From an uncultured virus (IMG/VR IMGVR_UViG_3300021375_000010) (taxonomy: Duplodnaviria > Heunggongvirae > Uroviricota > Caudoviricetes), in the IMG/VR virus record IMGVR_UViG_3300021375_000010: DNA of 20,000 bases. One strand, given 5' to 3'. A model generated the notes under the pieces. It saw only the letters and a list, made by a program, of their open reading frames with translations, did no database searches and was not told the DNA's origin. Positions 10,375-14,468 of the stretch are shown piece by piece. Numbering within the stretch: the first letter of the stretch is position 1; every line of letters begins with the position of its first letter. The position numbers and the translations under genes are program-made.

Positions 10375-11043
10375 ATGATATTACGAAACAACATGTGCAT
10401 TATTGAAAATGCATTCACAGACGATGAAGTCGAACAGATAAAACGAGTTGCAAAAGGACAAGAAGAAGTCGTAGCAATGGTTGGAGACCCATCCACAGGC
10501 GGTGCAGATGATGCTCAAGTACGCTCGGGTAAAGTTAAATGGTTTATGAACCAAAATATGCAGAACTCGATTCCCGATGTGTATGATAAATTATATAAAC
10601 TTATAGAAGAAGCGAATGTAAGTTCTGAATGGAATCATAAAATTGAATTTGTTGAGAATCTTCAATACACCATATACAATGCTCCCGCTAAAACCAAAAA
10701 AAAGAAGGGAGACTTTTACACTTGGCACACTGATAGCGGGCCAGAACCTTTACCAAATGGTAAGATACGTAAATTAAGTTTAACAGTTCAATTGTCAGAC
10801 CCCGAAGAATATGAAGGTGGTAATTTCCAATGGTTAGAACCTACTCAACAACTAAACGGTATGGGGAAAGGTTTTGGGATGAAGTTGGATATGAATAATT
10901 CTGTTCGAACAGTACCATTCAGTGGTAAGACAAAGGGGACATGTATCATATTCCCATCATTTATATATCACCAAGTAACACCAGTGACACATGGAACACG
11001 TGAATCTCTAGTGGGATGGTTTGCTGGCGACCCATATGTCTAA
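10375..11043 (+). CDS. 2OG-Fe(II) oxygenase, PKHD-type/prolyl-hydroxylase-like
   Basis: HxD (WHTD), RKLSLTVQLSDPEEYEGG, distal His and 2OG-binding Arg in FPSFIYHQVTPVTHGTRESLVGW. Confidence 0.92.
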   Translation: MILRNNMCIIENAFTDDEVEQIKRVAKGQEEVVAMVGDPSTGGADDAQVRSGKVKWFMNQNMQNSIPDVYDKLYKLIEEANVSSEWNHKIEFVENLQYTIYNAPAKTKKKKGDFYTWHTDSGPEPLPNGKIRKLSLTVQLSDPEEYEGGNFQWLEPTQQLNGMGKGFGMKLDMNNSVRTVPFSGKTKGTCIIFPSFIYHQVTPVTHGTRESLVGWFAGDPYV

Positions 11044-12493
11044 CATTGTAAGAGTAGAGAAATGTGATGAAGTATTTCTAAGAGTCCATTGTGATAAAGG
11101 ACTTTCTAGAGACTTGTTTGAATTTTTCTCATTTACTGTACCCAATGCAAAATTTATGCCATCATATAAGAATCGTATGTGGGACGGTAAGGTACGACTC
11201 TTCTCAATTAAAACAAACAAAATTTATATAGGATTACTTCCATACATCGATGAGTTCTGTAGAGAACGAGGATTTGAGTTTGAAGGTGTCCAAGATGTTA
11301 TAGGTGATAAGACTAGAATATCAGATGAAGATGTGGACTTCTTTATCAATGGAGACGACTTAATTCCAGGCTTGGGACTTCCTTTTGCACCAAGAGATTA
11401 TCAAATAGATGCATTCAAATCTACAGTACAGTATGGTAGACAGTTATTATTATCTCCTACTGCTAGTGGTAAGTCATTAATCATTTATATGTTATGCAGA
11501 TGGTTTGAAGGAGAGATGTCTCTACCCAATTGTAAGACTGTAATAATAGTTCCTACTACTTCGTTGGTTGAACAGATGACCAAAGATTTTCAAGAGTATG
11601 GATACAAAGAACCTATTTGTAAAATATACAGTGGACAAGAAGTATTTGATTCCTCTATAACAGTCACAACATGGCAGTCCTTTGCAAAAGCACCTAAAGA
11701 AGTATTACAATCATTTGATGTTGTGGTAGGGGATGAAGCACATTTATTTAAAGCACAAACACTCAAAGGTATTTTAGAGAAGATGAAAACTACTGCAATT
11801 CGTATCGGAACTACTGGTACACTTGATGGCAGTGAAGTTCATAGACTACAACTAGAAGGTTTGTTTGGGCCAGTCAAAAAGGTCATAACCACAAAAGAGT
11901 TAATGGACGAAGGGACGATTGCAAATTTAAATATAGAATGTGTCATACTTCGTCATACCAAACAGAAGAAAATGTCATACCAAGATGAGATGGATTATCT
12001 CGTAGGAAATGATAGTAGGAACGAATTTATATGCAACCTAGTATATTCCCTTAAGGGGAACACACTTGTACTATTTCAATATGTCGAAAAACATGGAGTT
12101 CTTCTACATAATAAGATGACATGTCGATTGGGTGAACAATTACACTATGTCTATGGCGGAACCGATACCAAGGATAGGGAGAACGTAAGGGAAATCGTTG
12201 AGAAAGCAAATGACAACGTCATACTGGCGTCATACGGTACCTTCTCAACTGGTGTTAATATTAAGAAGATTGATAATGTAGTCTTTGCATCTCCTTCCAA
12301 ATCACGAATAAGAAACTTACAATCTATTGGTAGAGGTCTTAGAAAGGCTGATGGTAAAACTGAAATGCGATTGTTTGATATATCAGATGATTTACAATGT
12401 GAGAATCATACTCTCAATCACCTTAAGGAACGTATAAATATATACAACGAAGAGGGATTTGTATATCAAATGAGACAATTCAACATTACATGA
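11036..12493 (+). CDS. uvsW: SF2 DNA helicase UvsW
   Basis: WDGKVRLF, PRDYQ, SPTASGKS, GDEAH, GTTGT, STGVNI, LQSIGRGLR. ATG 11036 is preferred over TTG 11021. Confidence 0.97.
   Translation: MSNIVRVEKCDEVFLRVHCDKGLSRDLFEFFSFTVPNAKFMPSYKNRMWDGKVRLFSIKTNKIYIGLLPYIDEFCRERGFEFEGVQDVIGDKTRISDEDVDFFINGDDLIPGLGLPFAPRDYQIDAFKSTVQYGRQLLLSPTASGKSLIIYMLCRWFEGEMSLPNCKTVIIVPTTSLVEQMTKDFQEYGYKEPICKIYSGQEVFDSSITVTTWQSFAKAPKEVLQSFDVVVGDEAHLFKAQTLKGILEKMKTTAIRIGTTGTLDGSEVHRLQLEGLFGPVKKVITTKELMDEGTIANLNIECVILRHTKQKKMSYQDEMDYLVGNDSRNEFICNLVYSLKGNTLVLFQYVEKHGVLLHNKMTCRLGEQLHYVYGGTDTKDRENVREIVEKANDNVILASYGTFSTGVNIKKIDNVVFASPSKSRIRNLQSIGRGLRKADGKTEMRLFDISDDLQCENHTLNHLKERINIYNEEGFVYQMRQFNIT
12433..12440 (+). promoter_or_regulatory. 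Possible late promoter inside the uvsW 3' end serving the ORF at 12490
   Basis: Exact TATAAATA about 50 nt upstream of ATG 12490, but inside coding sequence. Confidence 0.4.
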
Positions 12494-12951
12494 AGGCAAA
12501 AGACTTGCACACACCACAACAATATGAAGTAGTTAAACTTAAAATTGGTACTGAACTAGTTGCAATGACTAGAGACCGTGCTGATAAATTGGAGTTAACA
12601 CTACCTATGTGTTATACACTCACTCCAGCAGGAGACGGAACAAGTAACACTACCTTCTATCCCTTTGCACCAACTAGTAAAAGCACTAACATAGTTATCG
12701 ATAAAGAAGATATCATGTACAGGGCAGAAGTTAGTGAACAATTCATTCCCATTTATGATAAAGCTTCATCGTCTTGGGCAACGATGTTAGAAGCACAATC
12801 TATTCCCATTTCTACAGGACAAGTTATTAAGTCCCCATCACTTCAGAGAATGCATGAACTACTCGAAGACTACATGGGTGATGCTGAACTTGACGAAGAA
12901 TGGGACGATGATATACTTGATGTTAGTGGAACCCCCAAGATAATTCATTGA
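12490..12951 (+). CDS. Conserved T4-like hypothetical protein downstream of uvsW (possible Sm-like fold)
   Basis: ATGA overlap with uvsW, VVKLKIGTELVA motif, and an acidic tail ending in KIIH. Confidence 0.8.
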   Translation: MKAKDLHTPQQYEVVKLKIGTELVAMTRDRADKLELTLPMCYTLTPAGDGTSNTTFYPFAPTSKSTNIVIDKEDIMYRAEVSEQFIPIYDKASSSWATMLEAQSIPISTGQVIKSPSLQRMHELLEDYMGDAELDEEWDDDILDVSGTPKIIH

Positions 12952-12963
12952 GCAAAAAAGAAT

Positions 12964-12971
12964 ACTAAATA
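12964..12971 (+). promoter_or_regulatory. Putative late promoter (ACTAAATA) for the small membrane ORF array
   Basis: Intergenic TAAATA core, with a second near-match TATAAATC at 12979-12986 and RBS AGGA before ATG 13040. Confidence 0.55.
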
Positions 12972-13039
12972 GTCTGCGTATAAATCAGAGTTATATTTGA
13001 TTATACAATATTTTAATATACAACAACTAGGAAAATACC

Positions 13040-13204
13040 ATGACAACAGCTGCGATAGCTAAGAGCATGGTGCGAAAAACTAAAGAGATTAGAGAGAGTA
13101 AGCAAGTGTGTGTTCTCTGTGATGTTATTGAATTTCTAGCATTCATGACTCTTCCCTTTATAGTACCATTTATGATAATGTATTTTACATTATTAAATTT
13201 CTAA
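13040..13204 (+). CDS. Small membrane protein A (54 aa)
   Basis: MTTAAIAKSMVRKTKEIRESKQVCVLCDVIEFLAFMTLPFIVPFMIMYFTLLNF*. RBS AGGA, basic N-terminus, CxxC and a C-terminal hydrophobic helix. Confidence 0.75.
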   Translation: MTTAAIAKSMVRKTKEIRESKQVCVLCDVIEFLAFMTLPFIVPFMIMYFTLLNF

Positions 13205-13326
13205 TGCGGATACTTATACTTCTTACCATTTTAGGTTCATGGGCAATTCTATATGACCGAGACCCAGGCTCTTTGCGGTCTTTAAGAAATGCCACAGAGT
13301 TTAATAATATGAGTCCAAACTCATGA
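13204..13326 (+). CDS. Small membrane/secreted protein B (40 aa)
   Basis: MRILILLTILGSWAILYDRDPGSLRSLRNATEFNNMSPNS*. TAATG overlap with A; N-terminal hydrophobic segment. Confidence 0.65.
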   Translation: MRILILLTILGSWAILYDRDPGSLRSLRNATEFNNMSPNS

Positions 13327-13415
13327 AGAAGTCATCCAACCTCAAAGACCTCATGGAGATAGGCACACTAGTATCTATCTTCATGATAACCATTCTATCT
13401 TTAGTGGAGGTATAA
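13323..13415 (+). CDS. Small membrane protein C (30 aa)
   Basis: MKKSSNLKDLMEIGTLVSIFMITILSLVEV*. ATGA overlap with B; C-terminal hydrophobic helix. Confidence 0.62.
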   Translation: MKKSSNLKDLMEIGTLVSIFMITILSLVEV

Positions 13416-13416
13416 T

Positions 13417-13617
13417 ATGTACGTACCTTGGTTTACCAAACCCGAGACTGAAAAGAAAGTACTTCAGATAGTCAACCTCTCGCCCAACGAATCAGTTATA
13501 GAAAAACTAACAGATGTACATCCCATGAAACAAATCTTTTGGGCAAGTATAGTACAGGTTTGTGTATTCGGTTTTATGATTCTCTCGTTCGCCGTCATCA
13601 ATAAATTAGTCCAATGA
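13417..13617 (+). CDS. Small membrane protein D (66 aa)
   Basis: RBS GGAGG; starts 1 nt after the stop of C; C-terminal helix IFWASIVQVCVFGFMILSFAVI. Confidence 0.8.
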   Translation: MYVPWFTKPETEKKVLQIVNLSPNESVIEKLTDVHPMKQIFWASIVQVCVFGFMILSFAVINKLVQ

Positions 13618-13763
13618 ACACACTATATAATATAGTAAAACGTAAATTTACAATGTCTTATGAACCGTCTTATATGGAGATATTATTTCACTTCATAGTA
13701 ACGATGTTATTAGGAATGATTCCGCTACTCGTACTATTTCTAATCGTTAATCTCTTTATATAA
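13614..13763 (+). CDS. Small membrane protein E (49 aa)
   Basis: MNTLYNIVKRKFTMSYEPSYMEILFHFIVTMLLGMIPLLVLFLIVNLFI*. ATGA overlap with D; about 27-residue hydrophobic C-terminus. Confidence 0.65.
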   Translation: MNTLYNIVKRKFTMSYEPSYMEILFHFIVTMLLGMIPLLVLFLIVNLFI

Positions 13764-13786
13764 GCTTCCCTGTGGGGACATAAGCT

Positions 13787-13824
13787 ACTTTAACATAGAT
13801 TTTCTAATCCACAAGTGGCTTTTT
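13787..13824 (-). promoter_or_regulatory. Putative leftward (antisense) sigma70-type promoter
   Basis: The minus strand reads AAAAAGCCAC-TTGTGG-N16-TAAAGT with an extended TGn -10. The upstream 10-mer and the spacing are identical to the gp55 promoter. Confidence 0.55.
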
Positions 13825-13871
13825 AAAAAAACTTATCTTTTTTTATTACCAAATAATTTCAAAAAGCCACT
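13814..13871. repeat. 11-bp perfect inverted repeat AGTGGCTTTTT / AAAAAGCCACT
   Basis: Arms at 13814-13824 and 13861-13871, separated by a 36-bp very AT-rich spacer. Confidence 0.85.
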
Positions 13872-13898
13872 AGGAATCCTATAACTAAGGAGTATAAT
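13861..13898 (+). promoter_or_regulatory. Putative early/middle promoter for gp55-gp47-gp46
   Basis: AAAAAGCCAC-TAGGAA-N16-TATAAT, with the ATG 6 nt after the -10. Confidence 0.7.
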
Positions 13899-13904
13899 GT
13901 ATAC

Positions 13905-14468
13905 ATGACTAAGAAAAAAGACCCTAAAACACAGGCGCATTACGTCAACAACAAGGACTTCACAGCGGCAGTTTCTGAGTATGCAATTGCAATCAAAGAA
14001 GCGAAAGAGTCGGAAGGAACTCCACCCCAAATGTCAGAGTACATAGGAGAATGCATCTATAAGATTGCAACAAGACTATCTACTAGACCCAACTTTATCA
14101 ATTACACTTATCGAGATGAAATGATATGTGATGCAATCGAGAATTGTATTCAGTATCTTGGCAACTTCAATGTAGAAAAATCAAACAATGCATTTGCATA
14201 TGTTACACAGATTTGTTACTATGCTTTCTTGAGAAGAATACAGAAAGAAAAGAAACAAGTGTACATTAAACAACAAGCAATTGATGCTACTTCACTCACA
14301 CTCGATGCATTTGATACAATCGATGGAATACACGACCCTACCTTAACCAACACTAACGTGGAATGGATGCAAGAGAATATGAACAGGGTTGCATATGAAC
14401 CAAGAAAATCAAAAAGAACAAGGAAATCTACAAAACAAAACTCACTAGAGAAATTCGAAGATAAATGA
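13905..14468 (+). CDS. gp55: Late-transcription sigma factor
   Basis: HYVNNKDF, YIGECI.KIA..LS.RPNFINYTYRDEMI.DAIENCIQY..NF..EKS.NAFAY.TQI.YYAFLRRIQKEKKQ. Confidence 0.97.
   Translation: MTKKKDPKTQAHYVNNKDFTAAVSEYAIAIKEAKESEGTPPQMSEYIGECIYKIATRLSTRPNFINYTYRDEMICDAIENCIQYLGNFNVEKSNNAFAYVTQICYYAFLRRIQKEKKQVYIKQQAIDATSLTLDAFDTIDGIHDPTLTNTNVEWMQENMNRVAYEPRKSKRTRKSTKQNSLEKFEDK

What the first reader, a model, noticed from the sequence alone, without database searches (positions are those of the whole stretch)
13040..13763. Hidden operon of five translationally coupled micro-membrane proteins between uvsW and gp55
Seen: the apparent gap is fully tiled by five ORFs of 54, 40, 30, 66 and 49 aa, and the ORF track shows only one of them. 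They are joined by TAATG, ATGA, TAA-T-ATG and ATGA junctions, with RBSs before the first and fourth. Each has a single hydrophobic segment. A, C, D and E have a polar, Lys/Arg-containing N-terminus and a C-terminal helix, and A has a CxxC just before its helix. Gapless coupling plus a shared architecture is unlikely by chance. I do not recognise any family. Inference: this is a co-expressed inner-membrane module, for example a hetero-oligomeric pore or lysis-timing system, superinfection exclusion, or small regulators of host membrane complexes. It could be host-derived.
Basis: partly seen in the sequence, partly recalled or inferred. Interest (0 to 1): 0.8.

Follow-up and report, generated by a model that had tools for sequence, protein, structure and literature searches.

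The report
Phage operon of host-derived membrane microproteins
An uncultured marine T4-like phage carries a tightly packed operon of five tiny membrane proteins, and two of them are copies of unannotated SAR86 bacterial microproteins that sit beside exported redox enzymes in the host genome.

Summary
Five same-strand ORFs of 54, 40, 30, 66 and 49 aa tile window 13040-13763 through TAATG, ATGA, TAA-T-ATG and ATGA junctions. Only 1 of 2000 shuffles tiles as well. All five are under purifying selection (pooled dN/dS 0.24 against a ~70%-identical relative). The coupling is conserved: 106 of 127 junctions in 48 distinct related cassettes lie within -4..+2 nt. A, C and D form the conserved core (66, 77 and 75 of 80 related IMG/VR loci). 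B and E are lineage-specific.

None of the five matches Pfam, PHROGs, NCBIfam or PDB, and A and D are not found in cultured phages.

The new result concerns C and D, which have chromosomal homologues in SAR86-order genomes. C-like 25-33-aa genes lie 2-32 nt upstream of a glutathione peroxidase gene in 26 of 26 loci. D-like ~60-aa genes lie beside a cupredoxin gene in 34 of 36 loci. In 21 of 48 phage cassettes a cytochrome c gene sits between C and D.

My best reading is a micro-AMG module acting on host membrane and periplasmic redox physiology, and it points to SAR86 as the host. The biochemical function is inferred, not shown. Pore, lysis or exclusion roles are not supported.

The parts
12965..12971 (+). 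CTAAATA motif in the conserved leader upstream of A
   Evidence: One search places it. It is kept in the main group of 25 aligned relatives. It is not enriched in the window: 3 found against 4.6 expected. Reading it as a late-promoter-like element rests on my recall of T4-type TATAAATA promoters.
12978..13006 (+). -10-like TATAAAT (12979-12985) inside a conserved inverted repeat (arms 12978-12987 and 12998-13006)
   Evidence: In the alignment of 25 relatives, the 7-pair stem GTATAAT/ATTATAC is 90.8% paired. None of 500 shuffles reaches that, and 2 pairs change on both sides. RNAalifold predicted no structure. An RNA hairpin and a palindromic operator are both still possible.
13029..13032 (+). 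Shine-Dalgarno-like AGGA before A
   Evidence: TAGGAAAAccATG is conserved across relatives.
13040..13204 (+). A: 54-aa peptide with a basic N-terminus and a C-terminal TM helix carrying conserved P39 and P43
   Evidence: A family is present in 66 of 80 loci. There are 208 clusters in the 5.8-billion-protein database, none with a Pfam domain; most carry no name or 'hypothetical protein', and three carry unrelated JGI names (FliP twice, an actin-like ATPase once). dN/dS is 0.38 against L007. No credible SAR86 homologue.
13204..13326 (+). B: 40-aa peptide with an N-terminal hydrophobic segment and a conserved W..L..R.PG.LR..R tail
   Evidence: Present in 13 of 80 loci. dN/dS is 0.26. Found in 0 of 201 SAR86-order genomes. 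In the L066 group it sits after C rather than before it.
13323..13415 (+). C: 30-aa tail-anchored microprotein, a homologue of a SAR86 microprotein encoded upstream of glutathione peroxidase
   Evidence: Present in 77 of 80 loci. dN/dS is 0.10. Matches in 83 of 201 SAR86-order genomes, against 2 weak hits outside that order in a class-wide sample of 300 scored genomes. hhalign probability 98%, E 2.6e-13. 26 of 26 host loci lie 2-32 nt upstream of GPx.
13406..13410 (+). Shine-Dalgarno GGAGG before D
13417..13617 (+). D: 66-aa protein with an N-terminal helix, an NLSPxES turn, an HPM(K/R)Q motif and a C-terminal TM helix; the best-conserved member and a homologue of a SAR86 cupredoxin-linked microprotein
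   Evidence: Present in 75 of 80 loci at 45-76% identity where tblastn finds it, mostly 59-76%. There are 128 clusters, none with a function name or Pfam domain, and 81 representative clusters among 1.84 billion proteins. dN/dS is 0.31. It is 69% identical to genes in a SAR86 single-cell genome and a Gammaproteobacteria MAG. 34 of 36 host loci lie beside a cupredoxin. The AF2 model has helices 9-19 and 25-65, mean pLDDT 71.5.
13614..13763 (+). E: 49-aa peptide with a KRK-containing N-terminus and a long C-terminal hydrophobic helix
   Evidence: Present only in 7 of 80 loci, all close relatives. dN/dS is 0.12. Relatives carry an unrelated 37-45-aa 'MKHYI' peptide in this slot. No credible SAR86 homologue.
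13809..13871 (+). Terminator-like hairpin CCAC-AA-GTGG plus T5 (13809-13824) and a long inverted repeat (13814-13828 / 13857-13871) between E and gp55
   Evidence: The arms covary in relatives, for example AAGGGGTTTTTT...AAAAAACCCCTT. The consensus terminator scan found none by its stricter rule.

Best explanation
The 724-bp 'gap' is one translationally coupled transcription unit. It encodes five single-pass inner-membrane microproteins of an uncultured marine T4-like (Kyanoviridae-like) myovirus. A, C and D are the conserved core of the slot, while B and E are lineage-specific additions.

C and D are phage copies of two cellular microprotein families confined, in the genomes sampled, to the SAR86 order. 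In the host, C-type genes sit directly upstream of an exported glutathione peroxidase. D-type genes sit directly beside an exported pseudoazurin-like cupredoxin.

Inferred mechanism: on infection the phage peptides insert into the host inner membrane. There they replace, supplement or compete with the host microproteins that work with these periplasmic redox proteins or with the membrane complexes they serve. This keeps or redirects electron flow and peroxide handling while the phage replicates. The cassette would then be an auxiliary-metabolic module made of microproteins.

What is shown: the genes are real, the coupling is conserved, the host homology exists, and the host synteny is conserved. 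What is inferred: membrane insertion, topology, the partner proteins, and the direction of the effect (support or inhibition).

Sub-confidences: real co-expressed genes 0.9; C and D exchanged with the SAR86 lineage, and hence a SAR86 host, 0.75-0.8; redox-module function 0.35-0.4.
For: Real genes.
- Tiling is beyond chance: 1 of 2000 shuffles reaches it.
- Nei-Gojobori dN/dS against L007 is A 0.38, B 0.26, C 0.10, D 0.31, E 0.12, pooled 0.24. Against L002 it is 0.23 pooled.
- Families occur in 66 (A), 77 (C), 75 (D), 13 (B) and 7 (E) of 80 gp55-anchored IMG/VR loci.
- 106 of 127 junctions in 48 distinct cassettes lie within -4..+2 nt.
- Where ATG is lost, D starts at a GTG overlapping the stop of the upstream gene.
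- Contigs from 4 RNA libraries of 3 studies cover parts of the block. One run covers A through D and, on a separate contig, E. This shows presence only.

Host link.
- D is 69% identical to genes in a SAR86 SAG contig and a Gammaproteobacteria MAG. Both lie in cellular context: CitMHS transporter, beta-lactamase-family protein, exonuclease I, acyl-CoA dehydrogenase and LysR regulator.
- The D profile hits 34 of 201 genomes of that order and 0 of 300 other genomes of the class.
- The C profile hits 83 of 201 in the order. In the class sample of 300 scored genomes it hits only 2 weak matches outside that order.
- Controls with the other small-TM profiles: B 0 of 201, the 'MKHYI' family 0 of 201, and A and E give only weak hits inside 210-440-aa ORFs.
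- hhalign gives phage C against SAR86 C 98% (E 2.6e-13), phage D1 against SAR86 D2 71% (E 3.6e-5), and the cross-control 2%.

Redox theme.
- 26 of 26 host C loci are 2-32 nt upstream of GPx (PF00255). 34 of 36 host D loci are within 250 nt of a cupredoxin (PF00127) on the same strand.
- Both enzymes have signal peptides.
- 21 of 48 phage cassettes carry a ~145-aa gene between C and D, tightly coupled. One representative was verified as cytochrome c, PF00034.
- IscU and an A-type Fe-S carrier occupy the same slot in other relatives.
- An earlier paper proposed SAR86 as host of a T4-like environmental genome from its IscU gene (PMC5332604, section 14 read).
Against: - No experiment or structure links C or D to GPx, the cupredoxin or any complex. 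The host microproteins are themselves uncharacterised, with no Pfam, NCBIfam or PDB relative.
- The window's own phage record (95,966 b, ~53% complete) carries no cupredoxin, cytochrome c or GPx. None of the 80 related loci has a cupredoxin or GPx.
- If A, C, D and E are N-in tail-anchored, as their basic N-termini suggest, almost nothing of them reaches the periplasm. Direct docking of periplasmic proteins is then unlikely.
- The slot is a hyperplastic insertion site, so adjacency to cytochrome c may be coincidental packing.
- A, B and E have no host counterpart and no functional lead.
- D1-D2 homology is only moderately supported (71%).
- The D tree has 74 columns and many unresolved forks.
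- SAR86-order genomes are incomplete MAGs and SAGs, so the frequencies are lower bounds.
- RNA-library contigs do not prove transcription.
Confidence: 0.42

Rival explanations
1. The cassette is a host-takeover or superinfection-exclusion set. On this view the small early membrane peptides alter the envelope, for example by blocking DNA entry of competing phages or inhibiting host transporters or divisome parts, as T4 Imm and Sp do. The similarity of C and D to host peptides would then serve as mimicry that poisons host complexes.
For: T4-like phages are known to encode small membrane proteins for exclusion; this rests on my recall of established knowledge about T4 Imm and Sp, not on a call. 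B and E turn over between lineages, and E is replaced by an unrelated peptide, as arms-race genes do. A -10-like TATAAT and a conserved palindrome upstream would fit a regulated early promoter.
Against: No PHROG or PADLOC-type family was hit; PHROGs was searched and PADLOC was not. D is conserved at mostly 59-76% identity, well above its 153-aa neighbour (34-48% outside the close relatives L001-L007), which is unusual for exclusion genes. Host homologues sit in conserved operons with redox enzymes. Cytochrome c and Fe-S assembly genes share the slot.
Confidence: 0.2
2. The five peptides assemble into one hetero-oligomeric pore or channel in the inner membrane.
For: Tight translational coupling favours stoichiometric co-production. 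Polar or helix-breaking residues are conserved inside the TM helices: Q47 and M54 in D, P39 and P43 in A.
Against: Only A, C and D co-occur widely, and B and E are dispensable. In the host, C and D are encoded at two separate loci without A, so they work without the other members there. No test of binding could be run.
Confidence: 0.12
3. The cassette is a lysis-timing system, meaning a holin, antiholin or spanin-like set.
For: Holins and antiholins are small membrane proteins; this is general knowledge that I recall, not a call result. No lysis gene was recognised among the ORFs scanned in this window.
Against: No endolysin is adjacent: the neighbours are uvsW, the 153-aa core gene, gp55, gp47 and gp46. 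The peptides have one TM helix and almost no periplasmic domain, which does not fit i-spanin or o-spanin anatomy. Chromosomal SAR86 homologues beside GPx and the cupredoxin in non-viral synteny are hard to reconcile with a lytic function.
Confidence: 0.06
4. Some of the five, especially B and E, are not functional proteins. They would be young or decaying ORFs kept open by chance or by constraints on the overlapping message.
For: B and E occur only in 13 and 7 of 80 loci, with 5 and 3 distinct sequences. The substitution counts behind their dN/dS values are small, and dS is near saturation for E.
Against: Both keep their frame, length and coupling at ~62-69% amino-acid identity in L007, with dN/dS of 0.26 and 0.12. 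B is also kept at 42% identity in the L066 group at a different position in the cassette.
Confidence: 0.1

Closest known systems
Cyanophage auxiliary metabolic genes for electron transport (plastocyanin petE, ferredoxin, PTOX, hli); recalled from established knowledge, not from a call
   Same: These are host-derived genes in marine T4-like phages, related to membrane or periplasmic electron transfer, kept under purifying selection and placed in hyperplastic slots between core genes.
   Different: Here the transferred genes are 30- and 66-aa microproteins with no cofactor motif and no described family. The host is a heterotroph (SAR86 order), not a cyanobacterium. In this phage the redox enzymes themselves (cupredoxin, GPx) are not carried.
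T4-like environmental genomes with IscU and A-type carrier genes, one assigned to SAR86 (Nishimura et al. 2017, PMC5332604; abstract passage and section 14 read)
   Same: These are T4-like marine genomes near the pelagimyophages with gammaproteobacterial Fe-S assembly AMGs and SAR86 proposed as host. Relatives of this window carry IscU and an A-type carrier in the same slot.
   Different: The passages I read do not mention the small membrane ORFs, cytochrome c or the cupredoxin/GPx-linked microproteins. I did not test whether this window belongs to the same genus-level group.
Bacterial small membrane proteins that modulate larger membrane complexes (review PMC12648545, seen as a search listing and abstract start only; examples such as CydX and CcoQ are recalled)
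   Same: They share the size range of under 70 aa, a single TM helix, and encoding next to the genes of the system they serve.
   Different: No sequence relationship was found: Pfam, NCBIfam and PDB searches were empty or below cut-off. The partner genes here encode soluble exported proteins rather than membrane complexes.
T4 Imm and Sp superinfection-exclusion proteins (recalled)
   Same: They are small membrane proteins of a T4-type phage.
   Different: There is no homology (PHROGs scans). Imm and Sp have no conserved chromosomal host counterparts, which C and D do have.

Membership tests
Auxiliary metabolic gene (host-derived phage gene) | A homologue exists in cellular genomes in non-viral, syntenic context | tested here: met
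   For C, 83 of 201 order genomes match, and 26 of 26 inspected loci lie beside GPx and rpiA. For D, 34 of 201 match, and 34 of 36 inspected loci lie beside a cupredoxin, flanked by a beta-lactamase-family gene or CitMHS and by exonuclease I. This is not met for A, B or E.
Auxiliary metabolic gene (host-derived phage gene) | The phage copy is intact and under purifying selection | tested here: met
   dN/dS is 0.10 for C and 0.31 for D against L007. The genes are intact in 77 and 75 of 80 loci.
Auxiliary metabolic gene (host-derived phage gene) | The gene product takes part in host metabolism | not testable with these tools
   This is inferred only from gene neighbourhood: GPx and cupredoxin in the host, cytochrome c and Fe-S assembly genes in phage relatives.
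Holin / antiholin / spanin lysis cassette | Sequence membership in a known holin or spanin family, or adjacency to an endolysin | tested here: not met
   None of the five peptides hits a PHROG or Pfam family. The neighbours are uvsW, the 153-aa core gene, gp55, gp47 and gp46, and none of the 20 larger window ORFs scanned carries a lysis annotation.
T4 Imm / Sp superinfection exclusion | Sequence homology to Imm or Sp families | tested here: not met
   PHROGs v4 gave 0 families for all five at E<=0.01. For 15 D-family members at E<=1 there were only scattered single hits to unnamed families.
Known small subunits of respiratory or photosynthetic complexes (CydX, CcoQ, CtaJ, Pet/Psb small subunits) | A match to a family model or to a chain of a solved complex | tested here: not met
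   The best hits were NCBIfam CtaJ at E 0.058 (13.8 bits against a cut-off of 43) and PDB PsbM at E 1. All other searches were empty.
Translationally coupled operon | Same strand, stop/start overlaps or gaps of a few nt, conserved in relatives | tested here: met
   The window junctions are -1, -4, +1 and -4 nt. 106 of 127 junctions in 48 distinct cassettes lie within -4..+2 nt.
Translationally coupled operon | A single transcript covers all genes | tested here: inconclusive
   RNA-library contigs bridge A-B-C-D (12987-13593 in one run). E is covered on a separate contig. Contigs cannot show strand, ends or a single molecule, and DNA carry-over is possible.

The most novel reading that the evidence does not exclude
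C and D define two unrecognised classes of SAR86 inner-membrane microproteins. These would be obligatory partners, acting as anchors, docking sites or assembly factors, of the periplasmic cupredoxin electron carrier and the exported glutathione peroxidase. A widespread clade of T4-like myoviruses has captured both and fused them with phage-specific peptides A, B and E into one coupled 'micro-AMG' operon that rewires host respiration and peroxide defence during infection. The exchange has run in both directions: a phage-type D1 gene has replaced the native D2 gene at the cupredoxin locus of some SAR86 genomes. This would give the first gene-level marker tying an abundant uncultured phage clade to the uncultured SAR86.
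Probability: 0.3. Interest if true: 0.8.

Novelty: new variant of a known kind. Interest (0 to 1): 0.66.

Why it matters
Microproteins under about 70 aa are routinely dropped by gene callers, so both phage AMG catalogues and host annotations miss them. This case shows that such peptides can be conserved, exchanged between an uncultured bacterium and its phages, and tied to specific redox enzymes.

If the reading holds, it gives three things:
1. A testable function for two orphan SAR86 microprotein families linked to cupredoxin and glutathione peroxidase.
2. A sequence marker linking a cosmopolitan T4-like phage clade to SAR86, for which no phage had been isolated when Nishimura et al. wrote in 2017 (PMC5332604; I did not check later isolations).
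3. An example of an auxiliary metabolic module built from accessory peptides rather than enzymes.

Tried and rejected
- **Complex prediction.** Hetero-oligomer formation remains untested.
- **Family and structure searches.** Pfam, PHROGs, NCBIfam and PDB sequence searches of the phage and host peptides gave nothing above cut-off.
- **ESM Atlas for D.** The best score was 0.87, below the level that carries weight.
- **Cultured phages.** DNA and tblastn searches of 50,697 records found only the gp55 core in the DNA search, and no A or D. The A and D profiles found nothing in Melnitz, Mosig or P-HM1. Mosig's 36-aa ORF in the same slot is not hydrophobic and is unrelated.
- **Paralogy.** A against D is rejected (4%). 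A against C is ambiguous (40%).
- **AF2 model of D.** Two helices, with low confidence in the N-terminal half. No fold search was made, because a 66-residue helical model would not be informative.
- **Leader structure.** RNAalifold on the leader gave no structure.
- **CTAAATA motif.** It is not enriched in the window, so I make no late-promoter claim.
- **Promoter and terminator scan.** It gave background numbers.
- **RNA contig ends.** Two studies begin at 12987 and 12995, but other runs begin at 13039 or read through from 12400, so I claim no transcription start. Parts without RNA contigs in single runs are not evidence of absence.
- **Genome-contig scan.** The alignment query failed for lack of a conserved stretch. 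I repeated it with the single protein.
- **Earlier findings of this scan.** Nothing was found by place, sequence or words.
- **Literature.** The pelagimyophage paper PMC7029224 has no passage on cytochrome, iron-sulfur, transmembrane, gp55 or IscU (term search). No paper in the library holds both 'SAR86' and 'pseudoazurin'.
- **Unresolved.** Whether L010's 40-aa peptide is an E homologue was left open.
Full report
**1. Observation**

The window is part of a 95,966-base IMG/VR virus record, about 53% complete. Its gene order is:
- terminase, sheath, tube, portal, protease, scaffold and major capsid;
- a gp3-like gene, UvsY, a 2OG-Fe(II) oxygenase and UvsW (11021-12490);
- a 153-aa ORF (12490-12951), then a gap, then gp55 (13905-14468), gp47 and gp46.

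Cultured Kyanoviridae share the order UvsY - UvsW - ~140-aa gene - gp55 - gp47, with only ~100 nt before gp55. The ~140-aa gene is annotated 'methylamine utilization' in Mosig and P-HM1 and 'hypothetical protein' in Melnitz. UvsW is only ~49% identical to these phages, so the window belongs to a separate, uncultured clade.

The five + strand ATG ORFs are A 13040-13204, B 13204-13326, C 13323-13415, D 13417-13617 and E 13614-13763. They are joined by TAATG, ATGA, TAA-T-ATG and ATGA. Shine-Dalgarno-like motifs occur only before A and D. Each peptide has one hydrophobic segment.

A chain of such ORFs covers 723 of the 953 gap bases. Only 1 of 2000 dinucleotide-preserving shuffles does as well on either strand.

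**2. Are they genes?**

I used gp55 as an anchor to fetch 80 related IMG/VR loci with gp55 at 74-100% identity. A tblastn search and then three rounds of profile search over all + strand ATG ORFs of these loci gave the following:

| Family | Loci of 80 | Distinct sequences |
|---|---|---|
| A | 66 | 32 |
| C | 77 | 38 |
| D | 75 | 44 |
| B | 13 | 5 |
| E | 7 | 3 |

. Many loci are near-duplicates and some are cut short upstream, so these counts are descriptive.

Against L007, where the five peptides are 58-72% identical, Nei-Gojobori dN/dS is 0.38, 0.26, 0.10, 0.31 and 0.12 for A-E. The pooled value is 0.24, and gp55 gives 0.06. Against L002 the pooled value is 0.23. The counts are small, and dS is near saturation for C and E.

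Among 48 distinct cassettes holding both A and D:
- 106 of 127 gene junctions lie within -4..+2 nt.
- The architectures are A-C-D (17), A-C-[142-147-aa gene]-D (21), A-B-C-D-E (4), A-C-B-D (4) and A-D (2).
- Where D seemed truncated, it starts at a GTG overlapping the stop of the upstream gene.

Contigs from four RNA libraries of three studies cover parts of the block. One run bridges A to D (12987-13593) and covers E on a second contig. This shows presence in RNA libraries, not proven transcription.

Taken together, all five are real coding genes. A, C and D are the stable core, and B and E are lineage-specific. In relatives the E slot holds an unrelated 37-45-aa 'MKHYI...GD.DRMSR' peptide.

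**3. What are they?**

None of the five matches Pfam, PHROGs or NCBIfam. Profiles of A, C and D match no PDB chain; B and E were not searched against PDB.

D has 128 clusters in the 5.8-billion-protein collection. None has a function name or a Pfam domain. A profile of D finds only 81 representative clusters among 1.84 billion proteins, nearly all small.

A has 208 clusters, none with a Pfam domain. Most carry no name or 'hypothetical protein'. Three carry unrelated JGI names: FliP twice and an actin-like ATPase once.

A and D are absent from 50,697 cultured-phage records by tblastn. Their profiles are also absent from Melnitz, Mosig and P-HM1.

A and D are unrelated to each other (hhalign 4%). 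A and C share a weak K-L-x-D-x-I-E-F/I motif (40%).

The AF2 model of D has a short helix (residues 9-19), the conserved NLSPxES turn, and one long helix (25-65) that includes the TM segment. Mean pLDDT is 71.5 and the N-terminal half is low in confidence.

**4. The host link**

A scan of one genome per prokaryotic species found D in four contigs. Two look viral, with PhoH, an M15 peptidase and small ORFs.

The other two carry a D gene 69% identical to the window's, in plainly cellular surroundings. One is a SAR86 single-cell genome and the other a Gammaproteobacteria MAG. The surroundings are a CitMHS transporter, a beta-lactamase-family protein, exonuclease I, an acyl-CoA dehydrogenase and a LysR regulator. 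In both contigs D lies immediately downstream of a plastocyanin/azurin-family cupredoxin, PF00127.

Profile searches over 201 genomes of that SAR86 genome's order, with class-wide controls, gave:

| Family | Order (of 201) | Comment |
|---|---|---|
| D | 34 | 0 of 300 other genomes of the class |
| C | 83 | outside the order, only 2 weak partial hits among 300 scored class genomes |
| B | 0 | |
| 'MKHYI' family | 0 | |
| A | 8 | weak hits, all inside MarC-family ORFs |
| E | 4 | weak hits, all inside ~439-aa ORFs |

The empty and spurious results for the other four profiles act as specificity controls for short hydrophobic profiles.

Profile-profile comparison gives 98% (E 2.6e-13) for phage C against SAR86 C. 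It gives 71% (E 3.6e-5) for phage D1 against the commoner SAR86 type D2. The cross-control gives 2%.

**5. Host neighbourhoods**

I fetched 26 C loci and 36 D loci. I scored their neighbours with HMMs built from Pfam-verified members.
- In 26 of 26 C loci, the 25-33-aa C-type gene lies 2-32 nt upstream of a glutathione peroxidase (PF00255) on the same strand. Where the flank was scanned with Pfam, ribose-5-phosphate isomerase lies next to it.
- In 34 of 36 D loci, the ~60-aa D-type gene lies on the same strand as a cupredoxin. It is either 3-25 nt downstream of it or 81-144 nt upstream of it.
- The two D exceptions are a locus cut by a contig end and one locus set among Fe2+-transport, DUF411 and DoxX genes.

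Both the peroxidase and the cupredoxin start with signal peptides.

A maximum-likelihood tree of 63 D sequences (74 columns, many unresolved forks) splits D into two types.
- D2 has 16 cellular and 12 phage sequences, with most phage sequences nested (96/99 support).
- D1 has 32 phage sequences, 2 cellular ones and 1 from a MAG contig. The two SAR86 D1 genes nest among the phage sequences, at only 82/63 support.
- At least three changes between the phage and cell labels are forced.

This fits repeated exchange between the phage clade and SAR86. It may include replacement of the native D2 by a phage-type D1 at the cupredoxin locus, but the direction of transfer is not established.

**6. Context in phage relatives**

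In 21 of 48 distinct cassettes, a 142-147-aa gene lies between C and D and is coupled to both. It has an N-terminal hydrophobic segment and a CAACHG haem-binding motif. The one representative I tested is a cytochrome c, PF00034.

Other relatives carry IscU (PF01592), an A-type Fe-S carrier (PF01521) and an EF-hand protein in the same slot.

Nishimura et al. 2017 (PMC5332604, section 14 read) described T4-like environmental genomes near HTVC008M with IscU and A-type carrier genes. From the IscU tree they proposed SAR86 as host of one of them. The passages I read do not mention these small ORFs.

**7. Mechanism**

The following is shown:
- a conserved, coupled operon of five membrane-type microproteins;
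- C and D shared with SAR86 chromosomes;
- conserved host operons pairing C with an exported peroxidase and D with an exported blue-copper electron carrier;
- periplasmic cytochrome c and Fe-S assembly genes in the same phage slot.

The following is inferred. The phage peptides insert into the SAR86 inner membrane and take over, supplement or antagonise the roles of the host microproteins in periplasmic electron transfer and peroxide handling. This would be an auxiliary metabolic module.

Topology is open. The basic N-termini of A, C and E suggest N-in tail anchors. Host D2 has an acidic N-terminal part, which could instead face the periplasm. Whether the effect sustains or blocks host function cannot be told.

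The window's own record carries no cupredoxin, cytochrome c or GPx in the 53% available. If the model is right, its peptides act on host proteins.

**8. Rivals**

- Exclusion or takeover remains possible, mainly for A, B and E.
- A hetero-oligomeric pore is untested, because the predictor was unavailable. It is weakened by the separate host loci of C and D.
- A lysis role is unlikely, given the neighbours and the chromosomal homologues.
- Non-function of B and E is unlikely, given their dN/dS values and the relocation of B within the cassette.

**9. Flanks**

The ~90-nt leader before A is conserved in 25 aligned relatives. It holds CTAAATA, a -10-like TATAA(T/A)T, an inverted repeat GTATAAT...ATTATAC, and TAGGAAAAccATG. 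The inverted repeat is 90.8% paired, no shuffle of 500 reaches that, and two pairs change on both sides.

After E come a terminator-like hairpin with a T run and a long inverted repeat that covaries in relatives. These flanks fit a self-contained transcription unit. Neither the promoter class nor the nature of the palindrome (RNA hairpin or operator) is settled.

**10. Verdict**

The aside about host origin is borne out for two of the five.

The families are new to the databases searched. The phenomenon is a new variant of phage auxiliary genes, built from microproteins. It also yields a host hypothesis (SAR86) that agrees with one earlier, independent suggestion.

Noticed in passing
window 12965-13039: The ~90-nt leader upstream of A is better conserved than the C-terminus of the preceding 153-aa protein. 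It holds CTAAATA, a -10-like TATAAAT, an inverted repeat (12978-12987 / 12998-13006) with compensatory changes in relatives, and a conserved TAGGAAAAccATG. It could be an RNA hairpin or a palindromic operator overlapping the promoter.
   Followed up: partly
window 13764-13904: Between E and gp55 lie three elements: a CCC/GGG hairpin (13768-13777), a CCAC-AA-GTGG hairpin with T5 (13809-13824), and a 15-nt inverted repeat (13814-13828 / 13857-13871) whose arms covary in relatives. A conserved TATAAT (13893-13898) lies only 6 nt before the gp55 ATG, which raises the possibility of a leaderless gp55 mRNA.
   Followed up: partly
L023:2091-2534 (and 20 other distinct cassettes): A cytochrome c gene (PF00034, CAACHG motif, N-terminal hydrophobic segment) is inserted between C and D and translationally coupled to both. 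This looks like a respiratory AMG of this phage clade.
   Followed up: partly
L012:1508-2947: In other relatives the same slot holds an EF-hand protein with a signal-like N-terminus, IscU (PF01592) and an A-type Fe-S carrier (PF01521). This matches the Fe-S AMGs reported for T4-like environmental genomes (PMC5332604).
   Followed up: partly
L086:2181-2829, L087:3511-4177 versus L091-L105: Two SAR86-lineage genomes carry a phage-type D1 gene downstream of the cupredoxin, where most genomes have the native D2 type. In the tree their D1 genes nest among phage sequences with weak support. This may be replacement of a host microprotein by a phage-derived one.
   Followed up: partly
L106:128-2870: One SAR86-order genome has a divergent D-like 55-aa gene among Fe2+-transport (PF10634), DUF411 and DoxX genes instead of beside a cupredoxin. 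This hints at a wider link to periplasmic metal handling.
   Followed up: no
protein P0171 (476 aa, from the profile search): A long protein carries about ten tandem copies of D's N-terminal motif (ILQxVNESPDDSxLDEIIN) ahead of an unrelated C-terminal part. The motif therefore also exists as a soluble repeat module.
   Followed up: no
window 12490-12951: The 153-aa ORF next to the cassette is the homologue of the T4-like core gene annotated 'methylamine utilization protein' in cyanophages and Mosig (phrog_471/527). The cassette therefore lies between this gene and gp55, not directly after uvsW.
   Followed up: yes
L066:919-1002 and L066:1347-1565: The L066 group has an extra 27-aa hydrophobic ORF between C and B, and a 72-aa soluble ORF with no family between D and gp55. 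This further shows the turnover in this slot.
   Followed up: no
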